Source: Nitrosopumilus sp.
GTDB taxonomy: Archaea; Thermoproteota; Nitrososphaeria; Nitrososphaerales; Nitrosopumilaceae
Length of the DNA: 64,000 nt
Assembly: GCA_963662625.1 (NCBI GenBank)
Contig: OY759726.1
Span: forward strand, 960,001 to 1,024,000
Reading direction: 5' to 3'
The translations under genes were made by a program, and so were the position numbers. Shown one piece after another: positions 14,374 to 23,426 of this stretch (position 1 is its first letter; each line of letters starts with the position of its first letter). The notes under the pieces are model-generated. The model saw only the letters and a list, made by a program, of their open reading frames with translations, was not told where the DNA came from and did not search any database.

Positions 14374-15129
14374 TCACCGCCCGCCGCCGTGATCCTGCCG
14401 GCCCGCGCCATCTGCGGGCGGGTTCAGGTACTTTACGCCCTGCCCGCCATCGATCTGGTAGCCTGCCCCCCGCCAGAAGCCCTCGTTCTGGACGTCCCTG
14501 ACCCACAGCTTGACAAACCCGTTGCGCCCCAGCTCCCCCTCCATGTGCCCCAGGAGAATCCCTGCTCTCCCCTGCCCCTCCCTTGAAACCTGTATGGAGA
14601 CCACGGTGGGCTCGTACTCGCCCATCTCCGGGTTGAAGTAGTCCACCAGCGCCCTTCCTATGAGGGACTCGCCCTCGTACAGCAAAAAAACCGAGAGGGG
14701 GACCCCCCGGTCCGGCGACTCCACGATCCCGGACGCCGTCCTCACGGACACCCGCCCGGACACGACCTCCTCCTTCTCGACGTGCGGCACCCTGCCGACA
14801 ATGTGTCGAAAGTACCCGAAACTGTCCCTTAAAATCCCGGCAATGTCGTCGCACAGCTGCAGGGACGCGTTTGCCACCAGCCACACGTAGTGCGAGTCTA
14901 TGGTGCCAGCCCTCCGCCCCCCGCTGAAGATCATCGCGCTCAGCACCGTCCCGTCCTTGAGCGAGGACCTGACGGCGTACCCCCTCTCCTTGAGCGACTC
15001 TGCCAGCGAGTTTAGCACCTGGTCGGAGTACTGCGAGTGCACCGAAAATATCATGGTTGCCACCCCGGGGTCGACCAGCATCTCGTCGCGCGAAAAGACT
15101 CTCCCGTCCACCAGGAACCTCGGCTCCAC
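14374..15129 (-). CDS. Hypothetical protein with C-terminal GNAT-like acetyltransferase domain
   Basis: IQVSREGQGRAGILL (motif A-like) and NEGFWRGAGY (motif B-like). Confidence 0.55.
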   Translation of the reverse strand: MEPRFLVDGRVFSRDEMLVDPGVATMIFSVHSQYSDQVLNSLAESLKERGYAVRSSLKDGTVLSAMIFSGGRRAGTIDSHYVWLVANASLQLCDDIAGILRDSFGYFRHIVGRVPHVEKEEVVSGRVSVRTASGIVESPDRGVPLSVFLLYEGESLIGRALVDYFNPEMGEYEPTVVSIQVSREGQGRAGILLGHMEGELGRNGFVKLWVRDVQNEGFWRGAGYQIDGGQGVKYLNPPADGAGRQDHGGGR

Positions 15130-15169
15130 AGCACGGCTGTGGGCCGGGCGGCATAAAACGGTATTGGGC

Positions 15170-15919
15170 TCACAGGAAGCCGGGGAAGCCGGGAACGACG
15201 ATGCCGGCGATTACGTCCAGCCCTATGGCCCCGGTGACGGCGCCGGCCAGAACCCGCACCCACTTCCCCATCCCCGCAAACCTGCCCGAAATGAGGAACG
15301 TGGAGGACAGCGCCCCGGCCACCGCCATCATGCCGATCACCGAGCCCAGCCCGAACACCAGGACGAACGCCAGCACCTCCGAGATGTCGCTCAGCGCCAC
15401 CACGCCCACCGCGATCAGGCTCCCGCTCCCGGCCAGGCCGTTGAGGCACCCTATTAGGTAGGACTTGTGGGTGTGCGAGTGGCCCCTGCCGTGCTCGTGC
15501 GGGTGCGTGTGGACGATGCCGCCCTCGTGCGCGTGGGGATGCTCGTGTCGCACCCGGAATGCCTTCCTTCTGCCGCACATGGATATTCCCAGGGCGACCA
15601 GCACCGCCCCGACCGCAATCTCAAGCCCGTCAAACGCCATGGCCGGGATGCCCAGCGCAAACACGAACACCAGGGCGCTGACGAGGAGGATCGTGGACAT
15701 GTGGCCAAACCCCCAGAACGCGCCCAAGAGGGAGTTCCTGAGGGCCGCCGCCCAGGTTCCCCCGAAGGGCCCGGCCGGATCTTTCTTCCCGCCGCCCCGC
15801 ACCTGCGTCAGCATGGCAGCCACGTGATCCGGCTCGAAGGCATGCAGCAAGCCCACCAAAAACCCCGCAGACAGCAGCAGGCCGCCTCCCAGCTGCGCGA
15901 GCGACTCCCCCACTACCAT
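15170..15919 (-). CDS. UreH/NiCoT-type nickel transporter
   Basis: GLLHAFEPDHVAA, WGFGH, His-rich loop HEHPHAHEGGIVHTHPHEHGRGHSHTH, GLAGSG; ATG 15919. Confidence 0.85.
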   Translation of the reverse strand: MVVGESLAQLGGGLLLSAGFLVGLLHAFEPDHVAAMLTQVRGGGKKDPAGPFGGTWAAALRNSLLGAFWGFGHMSTILLVSALVFVFALGIPAMAFDGLEIAVGAVLVALGISMCGRRKAFRVRHEHPHAHEGGIVHTHPHEHGRGHSHTHKSYLIGCLNGLAGSGSLIAVGVVALSDISEVLAFVLVFGLGSVIGMMAVAGALSSTFLISGRFAGMGKWVRVLAGAVTGAIGLDVIAGIVVPGFPGFL

Positions 15920-16308
15920 GCGCCGCCTCCGTCCAGCGGGCTTTCGCCGTGGGTGGCAGGTATGGGGCGGCTCAGGGAGACGGTGAACCTCTCGCCTGCC
16001 ATGACAACCTCGAAGTCCAGCCCCTGCAGCATCTCCGGGACCCCGATCATGACCTGCCCGGGCGACAGGATCGACGCCGCCTCCCTCCCGATCCGCCCCC
16101 CGTCCTTTCCCTCCCTGAGCGACGAGACGACGAACGCAGAGAACAGCAGCAGCGCGTCGTTGACGTTGATCCTCTGCCGCCGGCCCAGCATGCATCCCAC
16201 CCTATCGCAGGCCGCAAGGAAGGCCGCGTCGTCGGGCCCGTCGAACTGGAAGTTCTTCGTGTACGGCATGACGTCGGGCTCGCCCCTGACGGTGATCGTG
16301 ATCCGCAT
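15913..16308 (-). CDS. Divergent urease gamma-subunit-like protein (131 aa)
   Basis: RINVNDALLLFSAFVVSSLREGK...ILSPGQVMIGVPEML...TVSLSRPI aligns by eye with Ure[24 protein letters not shown]...[15 protein letters not shown]...[11 protein letters not shown] overlaps the upstream stop (TGATG). Confidence 0.75.
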   Translation of the reverse strand: MRITITVRGEPDVMPYTKNFQFDGPDDAAFLAACDRVGCMLGRRQRINVNDALLLFSAFVVSSLREGKDGGRIGREAASILSPGQVMIGVPEMLQGLDFEVVMAGERFTVSLSRPIPATHGESPLDGGGAW

Positions 16309-21660: not shown

Positions 21661-21709
21661 CCCCGTCCGGGCCCCGGGCGGCACGGGTTCCGGGCGCCGC
21701 CCGTGGCAA

Positions 21710-21725
21710 TACTTAAAAATTTCAA
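21710..21725 (+). promoter_or_regulatory. Promoter motif TACTTAAAAATTTCAA upstream of the chaperonin paralog
   Basis: Exact 16-bp match to 20048-20063; TTAAAAA lies about 28 nt before the ATG. Confidence 0.5.
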
Positions 21726-21740
21726 CAAGGGAGCATCAGG

Positions 21741-23426
21741 ATGAAATACCCCGATCTGATCAACCCGGAAATCTCGCGGATCGGCGTCCAAGAGTCACAG
21801 ATGTATAACATAGTCGCCGGGCAGCTGGTGACCGAAATCGTCAAGACGTCATTTGGCCCGCGAGGAATGGAGAAGGTGTACATCGACATCCTCGGAGAGG
21901 CCACGGTCACCAAGCACGGCGGGGCCTTCCTGAGGAAGATAGACGTCGACCACCCTGCAGCAAAGACGGTGGTCGAGGCCGTCAACGCCGTGGACACGCA
22001 CGTGGGCGACGGCACCGTCACAGCGGCGGTGCTGATCGGGGCTCTGCTCAAGCGGTCCCGGGCCCTGCTGGGGATGGGGGTCCCGACGGCCGCAGTCATC
22101 CGGGGCTTTGAGGTGGGCCTGGACTTTGCACTGGAGGCCCTGGAGGGGATGAAGATCAAGTCGGACCACGCAGACAGGCGGATGATGGCGAGGGTGCTTG
22201 ACTCCTGCCTGGAAGGAAAGGCGATCTTCGACTCCCTGCACGAAGACTCGCAAATCAGCAAGATGATAATCGACGCCGTATGCAGCGTGACTGACTTTGC
22301 CAAACGGAAGACGGACGTGGACAGCATCAAGATCGAGGAAAAACAGGGCAACTCGTCAGACATCCGGCTCGTGATGGGCACCGTGGTGGACAAGACCATA
22401 GACAGCCCCGCAATGCCAGTCGCGCTGGAGAACGCCAGGATCCTCCTGCTAAACGACCCGCTTGAGACCATGCGCACGAAGACGGAGTCGGAGATAGAGG
22501 TGTCCTCCCCCGGCCAGATGGGACAATTCCTGAAGCAGGAGGGCGCCGACGTCCTCTCCCTGGCCAAGAAGATCGTGGACTCTGGCGCAAAGGTGGTCGT
22601 GTCCCGAAAGGGAATCGGCGACCTCGCGCAGGAATACCTCGCAAGGGCCGGGATAATCTCCGTCCGCAGGGCAAAATACAACGATCTCTGGTGGCTGGAA
22701 AAGTCCACCGGGGCCAAGACGTGCATGGATGTCGAGAGGATCTCCGACGGCGAGCTGGGCTTTGCCTCGTCGGTGTATGAGCAGGACGTCGGGGGGGACC
22801 GGATGCTGTTCGTTGAGGCGAGGCAGCCCAGGTCCGTGACGCTCCTGCTGCGCTCCGTCTCCAAAAGCTACCTGGACGAATTCCACCGCACCGCAAAAAA
22901 CGGGATCTTTGCGCTGAGGAACTTCATCGAGGATCCCCACATCGTCTTCGGGGGCGGCGCGTGCGAGGCGGCGTTGGCGCAGAAGGTCAGGGAGCGCTCC
23001 GGGTTCGTGGAGGGGAGGGAGCAACTTGCGGTGCGGGGGCTTGCCGACGCGCTAGAAGAGATACCGCTGACCCTGGCCAGGAACGTGGGGATGAACGCGC
23101 TGGACGTGCTGCCGCAGCTAAGGGCAAGGGCGGCAGGGGCCAGGAATGCGCGGTGGTACGGGATCGACTCGCGTGCGAGGAGGGTCGGGGACATGCGTTC
23201 CGCAGGAATAGTCGACACCGCGGCAGTCAAGGAGCAGGTGTTGAAGACCGCAGTCGAGGTGACCAACATGATCCTGAACGTGGACGACGTCTTCGTGAAG
23301 GACCTGATCGACAACACGCACTGCCACATAGACGGGACGGTCCATGCCCACAAGGATCCCGGAAGGAACCACAACCACTGGGAACAGGAGGGGCTGGAGC
23401 AGCGCCAGATGCACCACTACTACTGA
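21741..23426 (+). CDS. Divergent group II chaperonin (thermosome-like) with His/Cys-rich C-terminal tail
   Basis: FGPRGMEK, VGDGTVTA, GGGACE, ALEEIPLTLARN, ILNVDD; tail NTHCHIDGTVHAHKDPGRNHNHWEQEGLEQRQMHHYY. Confidence 0.88.
   Translation: MKYPDLINPEISRIGVQESQMYNIVAGQLVTEIVKTSFGPRGMEKVYIDILGEATVTKHGGAFLRKIDVDHPAAKTVVEAVNAVDTHVGDGTVTAAVLIGALLKRSRALLGMGVPTAAVIRGFEVGLDFALEALEGMKIKSDHADRRMMARVLDSCLEGKAIFDSLHEDSQISKMIIDAVCSVTDFAKRKTDVDSIKIEEKQGNSSDIRLVMGTVVDKTIDSPAMPVALENARILLLNDPLETMRTKTESEIEVSSPGQMGQFLKQEGADVLSLAKKIVDSGAKVVVSRKGIGDLAQEYLARAGIISVRRAKYNDLWWLEKSTGAKTCMDVERISDGELGFASSVYEQDVGGDRMLFVEARQPRSVTLLLRSVSKSYLDEFHRTAKNGIFALRNFIEDPHIVFGGGACEAALAQKVRERSGFVEGREQLAVRGLADALEEIPLTLARNVGMNALDVLPQLRARAAGARNARWYGIDSRARRVGDMRSAGIVDTAAVKEQVLKTAVEVTNMILNVDDVFVKDLIDNTHCHIDGTVHAHKDPGRNHNHWEQEGLEQRQMHHYY

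What the first reader, a model, noticed from the sequence alone, without database searches (positions are those of the whole stretch)
14374..23426. Candidate undescribed nickel-dependent guanidino-compound-to-urea module appended to the urease cluster
Seen: directly downstream of ureABC and the second Dur3 is an operon of ureohydrolase -> urease-gamma-like protein -> UreH/NiCoT nickel transporter -> GNAT-like protein, with overlapping stop/start codons for the first three genes. Nearby are a non-Dur3 SSS symporter and an atypical His-tailed chaperonin, and these promoters share exact motifs pairwise. Known: ureohydrolases release urea from guanidino compounds, some members (guanidine hydrolase GdmH) use Ni instead of Mn, and urease supplies ammonia to ammonia oxidisers. 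Inference: the symporter imports a guanidino substrate, a Ni-loaded ureohydrolase cleaves it to urea, and urease converts that to ammonia. The UreA-like protein and the chaperonin may act as metal-loading or assembly factors in place of the HypA/HypB-type helpers of known Ni ureohydrolases.
Basis: partly seen in the sequence, partly recalled or inferred. Interest (0 to 1): 0.85.

Follow-up and report, generated by a model that had tools for sequence, protein, structure and literature searches.

The report
Urease-linked ureohydrolase module in ammonia-oxidising archaea
An ammonia-oxidising archaeon carries, beside its urease genes, a co-inherited and co-regulated gene set (importer, very conserved arginase-type enzyme, nickel permease, histidine-tailed chaperonin) that probably turns an unrecognised organic nitrogen compound into urea.

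Summary
The genes are there. The stop/start overlaps and the shared promoter words are real.

- arginase-family ureohydrolase (UH)
- urease-gamma-like protein (UreAL)
- Ni/Co-type permease
- TPR protein
- 83-aa protein
- tandem ribbon-helix-helix protein
- 54-aa membrane protein
- SSS symporter
- thermosome with a His-rich tail

The 'GNAT-like' gene is not part of it.

In 401 genomes of the class, 118 have the UH. Of these, 114 also have urease, and 111 (at least 112) have the His-tailed thermosome. Only 1 of 64 urease-positive, UH-negative genomes has that tail, and there it is a 64-aa fragment.

A CGTA-N3-TAC operator sits at a fixed distance before UH (20 of 21 loci) and before the symporter (14 of 21).

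A haloarchaeal sister clade pairs the enzyme with the same symporter type, and once with urease.

UH is neither the housekeeping agmatinase nor a signature guanidinase: the guanidinase Trp is Glu here.

Best reading: an imported guanidino compound is cleaved to urea by a probably Ni-loaded UH. Substrate, metal and helper roles are untested.

The scan found this module before in a soil archaeon (e1-7664033).

The parts
16308..17423 (-). UH: arginase-family ureohydrolase, 371 aa, with all six His/Asp metal ligands and a conserved C-terminal extension
   Evidence: Pfam PF00491 276 bits. Below the NCBIfam agmatinase cut-offs. 74-98% identical in 117 other genomes. Ligands H136, D159, H161, D163, D253 and D255 are invariant.
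15913..16308 (-). UreAL: urease-gamma-like protein, 131 aa, with an extra N-terminal beta hairpin
   Evidence: Pfam Urease_gamma 28.1 bits. AF2 model pLDDT 93. The Foldseek top 17 hits are all urease gamma. The family has 92 clusters.
15170..15919 (-). NiT: polytopic permease with a His-rich loop, probably for Ni/Co
   Evidence: Sub-threshold NicO match over residues 18-36. His-rich loop read. Found next to UH/UreAL in 16 of 20 loci.
17469..17478 (-). Operator CGTA-N3-TAC, 55 nt before the UH start
   Evidence: Present at -48 to -61 in 20 of 21 loci.
17544..18767 (+). TPR-repeat protein, 407 aa, divergent from UH
   Evidence: Pfam TPR families. Homologue next to UH in 15 of 20 loci at 40% coverage or more.
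18783..18793 (.). Palindromic operator copy before the 83-aa gene
18860..19111 (+). p83: 83-aa protein of unknown family, with a weak PepSY lead
   Evidence: No Pfam hit. Atlas lead. Found in 19 of 20 loci. 0 of 5 urease-positive UH-negative genomes, 5 of 5 controls.
19131..19652 (-). h173: tandem ribbon-helix-helix protein, the candidate regulator
   Evidence: AF2 pLDDT 84 with two beta-alpha-alpha units. Best fold match is TraY of the F relaxosome, E 0.064. Found in 19 of 20 loci. 0 of 5 against 5 of 5 controls.
19702..19866 (-). s54: 54-aa ORF that reads as a two-helix membrane protein, upstream of h173
   Evidence: ORF. tblastn matches in 15 of 20 and 5 of 16 loci.
20010..20050 (.). Two operator copies, 85 and 54 nt before the symporter start
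20095..21660 (+). SSS3: sodium:solute symporter, not Dur3
   Evidence: Pfam SSF. Found in 20 of 20 loci. No orthologue in 5 of 5 urease-positive UH-negative genomes. A 38% identical homologue lies beside the haloarchaeal UH.
21741..23426 (+). Thermosome paralogue with a His-rich C-terminal tail. Both catalytic Asp positions are substituted in this family.
   Evidence: NCBIfam thermosome_alpha 468.8 bits. Alignment A4. The tail is found in 112 of 401 genomes, 111 of them with UH.
14374..15129 (-). 'GNAT-like' ORF: a real but lineage-restricted neighbour, not a module member
   Evidence: No family hit. 5 homologues. Absent from 20 of 20 loci.
9370..11755 (+). ureABC, the proposed downstream step (context)

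Best explanation
This is a regulon for using an organic nitrogen compound through urea.

Proposed steps:
- The SSS symporter imports a guanidino-type compound.
- UH, a dinuclear-metal arginase-fold hydrolase, cleaves it to urea plus an amine or ammonia.
- The neighbouring urease turns the urea into ammonia for energy and assimilation.
- UH is probably nickel-loaded. The operon-encoded permease brings in the metal.
- A dedicated thermosome paralogue, whose His-rich tails replace the usual Gly-Met tail, folds and/or metallates UH.
- The tandem RHH protein h173 controls the UH, p83 and symporter promoters through CGTA-N3-TAC operators.
- UreAL, p83, the TPR protein and s54 are accessory, with unknown roles.

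Shown here: gene content, co-inheritance, restriction to urease genomes, the shared operator, intact metal ligands, and the folds of UreAL and h173.

Inferred: the reaction, the metal, the client relation of the chaperonin, and the DNA binding.

My guess for the substrate is a small neutral or cationic guanidine (guanidine, methylguanidine or agmatine-like) rather than a guanidino acid. The clade keeps Glu where guanidinases have the pocket-closing Trp. This guess is weak.
For: Module conservation:
- UH and UreAL are adjacent in 29 of 29 and in 20 of 20 loci.
- Within +-10 kb: symporter 20 of 20, h173 19 of 20, p83 19 of 20, thermosome 19 of 20, permease 16 of 20.

Link to urease (401 genomes): UH in 118, of which 114 have UreC. 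The 4 exceptions have 60-370 contigs or are 88% complete.

The helpers track UH, not urease:
- The His tail is in 111 of 118 UH genomes, plus G377, which the query missed.
- It is in 1 of 64 urease-positive UH-negative genomes, as a fragment.
- In 5 complete urease-positive UH-negative genomes: p83 0, h173 0, symporter orthologue 0, permease 1. Positive controls gave 5 of 5.

Three f5 genomes gave no tail match on a thermosome, yet their UH carries a C-terminal extension with about 11 His.

The operator is before UH in 20 of 21 loci and before the symporter in 14 of 21. Background is 100 of 3060 windows.

A separate 291-aa SpeB-like paralogue exists.

Haloarchaeal relatives (about 50-53% identical) lie beside an SSS homologue in 2 of 3 records (a third keeps only a fragment), and beside a full urease cluster in 1 of 3.

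Precedent: the Ni-dependent metformin hydrolase operon is hypA-hypB-two ureohydrolases-hupE (PMC11399263, passages). Guanidinases contain Ni (PMC11410670, passages).

Nearest solved relatives are guanidinobutyrase (8e-52) and guanidinases (1e-48, 1e-47), ahead of agmatinases (1.5e-33).
Against: - No activity, metal or expression data exist for this protein.
- The metal ligands are the ordinary His/Asp set that binds Mn in most relatives.
- The permease scores below the NicO cut-off, and a homologue lies by the urease genes in one UH-negative genome. It may therefore serve urease.
- UreAL is missing between UH and the permease in 5 lineages.
- G283 (99% complete) shows neither symporter nor thermosome within 10 kb of UH.
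- The symporter operator is replaced by another palindrome in the g14/f3 loci.
- A survey of nitrifier genomes reported no known guanidine-degradation genes in ammonia-oxidising archaea (PMC11410670, passages).
- Related genomes are not independent, so the counts overstate the support.
Confidence: 0.55

Rival explanations
1. UH is a second agmatinase or an arginase acting on the cell's own arginine or agmatine. The urea it releases is recycled by urease, and the symporter is just a third urea carrier.
For: Sources name relatives 'agmatinase'. One paper reads the clustered SSS as a urea carrier and the enzyme as SpeB (PMC11131427, passages). The restriction to urease genomes would also fit urea recycling.
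Against: - UH scores below both NCBIfam agmatinase cut-offs (209 against 302; 159.7 against 174.3) and the arginase cut-off.
- A separate SpeB-like gene exists.
- UH shares an operator with an importer that is only 21-24% identical to Dur3.
- Haloarchaea keep the same enzyme-symporter pair.
- The solved agmatinases are more distant than guanidino-acid hydrolases and guanidinases.
Confidence: 0.15
2. UH is a true guanidine hydrolase that closes its pocket with Glu instead of Trp. This would give ammonia-oxidising archaea the guanidine use so far known from comammox.
For: Three of the four proposed guanidinase residues are kept (T55, H176, E300). The context is nickel-related. Glu267 is conserved in the archaeal and haloarchaeal clades, while the next clade has Thr.
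Against: The signature Trp is absent. HMMER ranks guanidinobutyrase slightly higher. No guanidine riboswitch or APC permease was seen, though I did not search RNA families. The published screen found no such genes in these archaea (PMC11410670, passages).
Confidence: 0.2
3. The permease, the His-tailed thermosome, UreAL and p83 are extra maturation or assembly factors for urease itself, and UH merely travels with them.
For: UreAL has the urease gamma fold. p83 follows ureC in the g14 and f3 loci, and the thermosome abuts ureD in G008 and G290. In f5 the permease lies between UH and ureA.
Against: 63 of 64 urease-positive UH-negative genomes lack the tail. p83 was found in 0 of 5 such genomes. 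In f5 the His-rich tail is on UH, not on a urease protein. UH is the most conserved member, at 74-98% identity.
Confidence: 0.08

Closest known systems
Ni-dependent guanidine hydrolase / guanidinase (Synechocystis GdmH, PDB 7esr/7oi1; Nitrospira inopinata, 9fek)
   Same: Arginase fold. All six metal ligands are kept. T, H and E of the four proposed guanidine residues are kept. E 1e-48 and 1e-47. The product urea would feed urease in a nitrifier.
   Different: The pocket Trp (W305/W313) is Glu267. There are no HypA/HypB helpers. No riboswitch or APC permease was seen. UH has clade-specific inserts and a C-terminal extension.
Guanidinobutyrase GbuA and guanidinopropionase GpuA of Pseudomonas aeruginosa (3nio, 3nip)
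   Same: GbuA is the best solved match, 8e-52 over residues 12-315. They belong to the same subgroup of guanidino-compound hydrolases.
   Different: GbuA has Thr at the Glu267 position and Ser at T55. By recall it is a Mn enzyme with no nickel context.
Metformin hydrolase operon (hypA-hypB-mefH alpha/beta-hupE)
   Same: A ureohydrolase encoded together with a nickel permease and dedicated loading factors (PMC11399263, passages).
   Different: Here there is one catalytic gene and no HypA/HypB. The candidate helpers are a thermosome paralogue and a urease-gamma-like protein.
Urease gamma subunit UreA
   Same: Same fold: TM 0.75-0.80, rmsd 2.4-2.5 A over 89 columns. The LN-x-x-E and VM-x-GVPE motifs are shared.
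   Different: Only 20-29% identical. The first helix is replaced by a beta hairpin. It is encoded apart from the true ureA (9370-9672) and falls far below the NCBIfam cut-offs.
His-rich chaperonin partner HspA (GroES) of Helicobacter pylori (recalled, from no call)
   Same: A chaperonin-system protein with a His-rich C-terminal tail, tied to nickel-enzyme maturation.
   Different: That is a bacterial co-chaperonin. Here the tail is on a group II chaperonin subunit, at the position of the Gly-Met tail of the housekeeping paralogue.

Membership tests
Arginase/ureohydrolase superfamily (PF00491) | Profile match above the curated cut-off | tested here: met
   276.4 bits against a cut-off of 22.
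Arginase/ureohydrolase superfamily (PF00491) | Two His and four Asp ligands of the dinuclear metal site | tested here: met
   H136, D159, H161, D163, D253 and D255 are invariant in 17 sequences. They align with the ligands listed for the N. inopinata enzyme.
Agmatinase SpeB (NCBIfam TIGR01230, NF002564) | Score above the equivalog/subfamily cut-off | tested here: not met
   159.7 against 174.3, and 209 against 302. A separate 291-aa paralogue exists.
Guanidinase (GdmH type) | Trp closing the pocket (W305 in Synechocystis, W313 in N. inopinata) | tested here: not met
   It aligns with Glu267. Residue list taken from PMC11410670.
Guanidinase (GdmH type) | Thr105, His222 and Glu344 equivalents | tested here: met
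   T55, H176 and E300.
Guanidinase (GdmH type) | Nickel in the active site and guanidine hydrolysis | not testable with these tools
   Needs purified protein.
Urease gamma subunit | Fold and profile match | tested here: met
   Pfam 28.1 against 23.9. Foldseek top 17 hits.
Urease gamma subunit | Equivalog-level score and a place in ureABC | tested here: not met
   30.4 against 123 bits. The true ureA lies at 9370-9672.
Thermosome (group II chaperonin) | Profile match | tested here: met
   thermosome_alpha 468.8 against 450. The subfamily model TIGR02339 is not reached, 454.9 against 671.1.
Thermosome (group II chaperonin) | Two Asp held to be needed for ATP hydrolysis (role recalled; positions read from the paralogues) | tested here: not met
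   The window and 4 other f1 orthologues have His and Asn there. The 2 f3 orthologues and both housekeeping paralogues have Asp.
NiCoT/NicO nickel-cobalt permeases | Profile match above the cut-off | tested here: not met
   16.1 against 27.7 bits, N-terminal motif only. His-rich loop read.
Ribbon-helix-helix DNA-binding proteins (h173) | Beta-alpha-alpha unit and similarity to solved RHH proteins | tested here: inconclusive
   Two such units in the model. Best match is TraY, E 0.064, prob 0.99. No Pfam hit.

The most novel reading that the evidence does not exclude
A group II chaperonin paralogue has become a client-specific nickel-loading chamber. Its His-rich tails replace the Gly-Met tails and would line the cavity. 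There they would hand nickel to the enclosed ureohydrolase during folding, taking the place of HypA/HypB. In Nitrosopumilaceae the subunit has lost both Asp needed for ATP hydrolysis. In one family the same kind of tail has moved onto the enzyme itself. The enzyme would open an unrecognised organic nitrogen source, a guanidine-type compound, to the most abundant ammonia oxidisers of sea and soil.
Probability: 0.25. Interest if true: 0.9.

Novelty: new variant of a known kind. Interest (0 to 1): 0.75.

Why it matters
Ammonia-oxidising archaea drive nitrification in oceans and soils. Their accepted substrates are ammonia, urea and cyanate.

A conserved, regulated route from another organic nitrogen compound to urea was found in 118 of 401 genomes sampled. 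Such a route would widen their niche and change how dissolved organic nitrogen is budgeted.

The module also offers a testable case of metal-enzyme maturation by a dedicated chaperonin, and a handle on the substrate: find the ligand that releases the RHH regulator from its operator.

The haloarchaeal sister system gives genetically tractable hosts for testing.

Tried and rejected
- Complex prediction of UH with UreAL gave no verdict (score 0.00, mark 0.32). It counts neither for nor against binding.
- The look-up of sequencing runs listed no RNA holder. Nothing was laid.
- Pfam and NCBIfam gave nothing for p83, h173 or the GNAT-like ORF.
- The Foldseek search with h173 gave no match at E 0.001 or better.
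- The AbrB-PhoU gene at 23517-24557 was not found within 10 kb of UreAL in 20 of 20 loci, so I did not count it as a member.
- My first threshold for UreAL (E below 1e-8) missed divergent copies in g27.
- The 45-aa tail query missed G377.
- I could not build a tree with characterised enzymes, because solved-structure sequences come only as printed alignments.
No model of UH was made, so the pocket argument rests on alignment alone.
- Paper searches for a description of this module found only the SpeB-near-SSS remark. Supplements were not opened.

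
Full report
**What is in the window**

The window lies in a single-contig 1.86-Mb genome of an ammonia-oxidising archaeon with about 62% G+C. Upstream of the finding are:
- a Dur3-type symporter fused to a USP domain (4201-6504)
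- ureDGFE on the minus strand
- ureABC (9370-11755)
- a second Dur3 (11854-13842)

The finding itself holds on the minus strand:
- a 371-aa arginase-family protein, UH (16308-17423; Pfam 276 bits)
- a 131-aa urease-gamma-like protein, UreAL (15913-16308; Pfam 28.1 bits against a cut-off of 23.9)
- a 249-aa membrane protein with a His-rich loop, NiT (15170-15919; NicO only 16.1 bits against 27.7)

The stop/start overlaps are real: TGATG and ATGGTAG.

**The module is conserved and larger than described**

A search with UreAL in 401 genomes of the class gave full-length matches in 100 (my threshold E below 1e-8). In the 29 loci returned besides the window's own, UH sits directly beside UreAL in 29 of 29.

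I then cut 20 kb around UreAL in 20 genomes from 10 genera of two families and searched them with all window proteins:

| Gene | Loci with a homologue (of 20) |
|---|---|
| UH and UreAL | 20 |
| Non-Dur3 symporter SSS3 | 20 |
| 173-aa protein h173 | 19 |
| 83-aa protein p83 | 19 |
| His-tailed thermosome | 19 (the 20th lies just outside the stretch) |
| NiT | 16 |
| TPR protein | 15 |
| GNAT-like ORF | 0 |

- The GNAT-like ORF has only 5 metagenomic homologues.
- A 54-aa ORF (19702-19866, minus) that reads as a two-helix membrane protein lies between h173 and SSS3. It is conserved in 15 of these 20 loci.
- UH is 74-98% identical across families, whereas UreAL is 27-57% identical.

**Phylogenetic profile**

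Four searches used the same 401-genome sample (cross-tabulated).

| Feature | Genomes (of 401) |
|---|---|
| UH orthologue | 118 |
| UreC | 178 |
| Thermosome His tail | 112 |

- UH with UreC: 114 of 118. The four exceptions are assemblies of 60-370 contigs or 88% completeness.
- UH with the tail: 111 of 118. G377 has a tail that the query missed.
- Three of the remaining genomes (family f5) carry a His-rich extension, about 11 His, on UH itself.
- The tail without UH occurs once, as a 64-aa fragment.
- Of the 64 urease-positive genomes without UH, 63 lack the tail.
- In five complete genomes of that kind, p83, h173 and an SSS3 orthologue were found in 0 of 5 and NiT in 1 of 5. The same queries found p83 and h173 in 5 of 5 UH-bearing genomes.
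- These tallies include the unpublished genomes G282 and G364. Locus L030 and locus L066 come from them. No conclusion depends on these two alone.
- Related genomes are not independent, so the counts describe a pattern and are not a statistical test.

**Co-regulation**

Across loci they resolve into a motif, CGTA-N3-TAC, in some loci a full palindrome.
- It lies 48-61 nt before the UH start in 20 of 21 loci, including the other family.
- It lies 53-63 nt before the SSS3 start in 14 of 21 loci, with a second copy about 32 nt further up.
- Background is 100 of 3060 windows of 130 nt.
- The 64-kb window holds 7 sites counting both strands. Five lie in the UH, p83 and SSS3 promoters, with the palindrome counted twice.
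- The g14 and f3 loci carry a different palindrome before SSS3.
- h173 models as two beta-alpha-alpha units followed by two helices (pLDDT 84). Its best, weak, fold match is TraY, a tandem ribbon-helix-helix protein. That h173 binds the motif is inference.

**What the enzyme is and is not**

- The genome has only two arginase-family genes. The other is a 291-aa SpeB-like protein beside a tRNA-synthetase-like gene.
- UH scores below the NCBIfam cut-offs for agmatinase, arginase and formimidoylglutamase.
- Its nearest solved relatives are guanidinobutyrase (8e-52) and the two Ni-containing guanidinases (1e-48, 1e-47). Agmatinases lie at 1.5e-33.
- All six metal ligands are kept.
- Of the four residues proposed for guanidine hydrolysis (PMC11410670, passages), T55, H176 and E300 are kept. 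The pocket Trp aligns with Glu267.
- That Glu is kept in the haloarchaeal relatives. The next clade (42-46% identity) has Thr in three of its four aligned members.
- So UH belongs to the guanidino-compound branch but is neither a signature guanidinase nor SpeB.

**Nickel**

The evidence is contextual:
- a His-loop permease translationally coupled to the operon
- a co-inherited thermosome whose Gly-Met tail is replaced by a conserved His-rich tail
- the same kind of tail on UH where no thermosome tail was found
- no HypA, and only UreG as a strong CobW/HypB-family member, in this complete genome
- the precedent of Ni-dependent ureohydrolases encoded with nickel helpers and a permease (PMC11399263, passages)

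Against it: the ligands are the usual set, and NiT can occur by urease without UH.

In this window and four other f1 orthologues, the thermosome has His and Asn where both housekeeping paralogues and the two f3 orthologues have Asp. The catalytic role of those Asp is recalled.

**UreAL**

- The model is confident (pLDDT 93), and its 17 best PDB matches are all urease gamma chains.
- The family is small, 92 clusters among 1.84 billion representatives.
- It was lost between UH and NiT in five lineages and is very divergent in g27.
- Its role is open.

**Relatives outside the class**

- The next relatives of UH (about 50-53% identical) are haloarchaeal 'agmatinase family proteins'.
- Halalkalicoccus jeotgali plasmid: SSS, AbrB/PhoU regulator, UH.
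- Haloarcula marismortui pNG700: the same trio, with a formamidase and a chaperonin paralogue with a short His-containing tail about 6 kb away.
- Natronorubrum bangense plasmid: a full urease cluster, a PhoU regulator, then UH.
- The SSS proteins are 38% identical to SSS3.
- The enzyme-importer pair therefore recurs in a second archaeal lineage.

**Literature**

- Searches found no description of the module.
- One paper notes an SSS gene clustered with an expressed 'agmatinase SpeB' in a soil clade (PMC11131427, passages).
- Another states that most of these archaea carry 2-3 speB copies (PMC10753782, passage).
- The guanidine study reports no known guanidine genes in them and did not test them in culture (PMC11410670, passages).
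- Only passages were read, and no supplements. Their gene tables may bear on this.
- The scan itself reported the same module earlier in a soil archaeon (e1-7664033). That is not independent support.

**Verdict**

The interpretation as a route from a guanidino-type compound to urea is the best-supported reading (0.55). The substrate, the metal and the helper roles all still need experiments.

Noticed in passing
window 23517-24557 (-): An AbrB/MazE plus PhoU-domain protein lies just after the thermosome. In 3 of 3 haloarchaeal records a protein of this type sits directly upstream of the UH homologue. It was not found near the module in 20 other archaeal loci.
   Followed up: partly
L155-L157 (G173, G191, G265): In family f5, UH, a divergent UreAL (seen in L156 and L157 only), the permease and ureABCEFD run in one direction. 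UH carries a C-terminal extension with about 11 His. No His-tailed thermosome match was found in these genomes.
   Followed up: partly
G234, G243, G199, G274, G365: Some Nitrososphaeraceae-type genomes hold two ureC genes, 76-79% and 66-69% identical to the window's. In L041 and L044 the module lies beside the closer type. f3 genomes with only the distant type mostly lack UH.
   Followed up: partly
window 19702-19866 (-): An unannotated 54-aa ORF upstream of h173 that reads as a two-helix membrane protein. It is conserved in Nitrosopumilaceae loci.
   Followed up: partly
window 4201-6504 (+): The first Dur3-type symporter is fused to a C-terminal universal stress protein domain.
   Followed up: no
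window 13839-14360 (+): A Cys-rich (zinc-ribbon-like, by eye) membrane protein follows Dur3b. A homologue (58% identity) also follows a Dur3 gene in L034, and part of one lies in L003.
   Followed up: no
window 40001-44000: G+C drops to 0.50-0.53 against about 0.62 elsewhere. Not examined.
   Followed up: no
L149: A 1.1-kb contig with an 86% identical UH is filed under a Gallionellaceae bacterium assembly. This is probably a binning error rather than a bacterial copy.
   Followed up: no
window 14428-14437 (-): A further CGTA-N3-TAC site lies inside the 3' end of the GNAT-like gene. It may be chance.
   Followed up: no
L153 2202-3818 (+): Haloarcula marismortui pNG700 encodes a chaperonin paralogue next to a formamidase gene, about 6 kb from the UH homologue. 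Its last 30 residues hold several His.
   Followed up: partly
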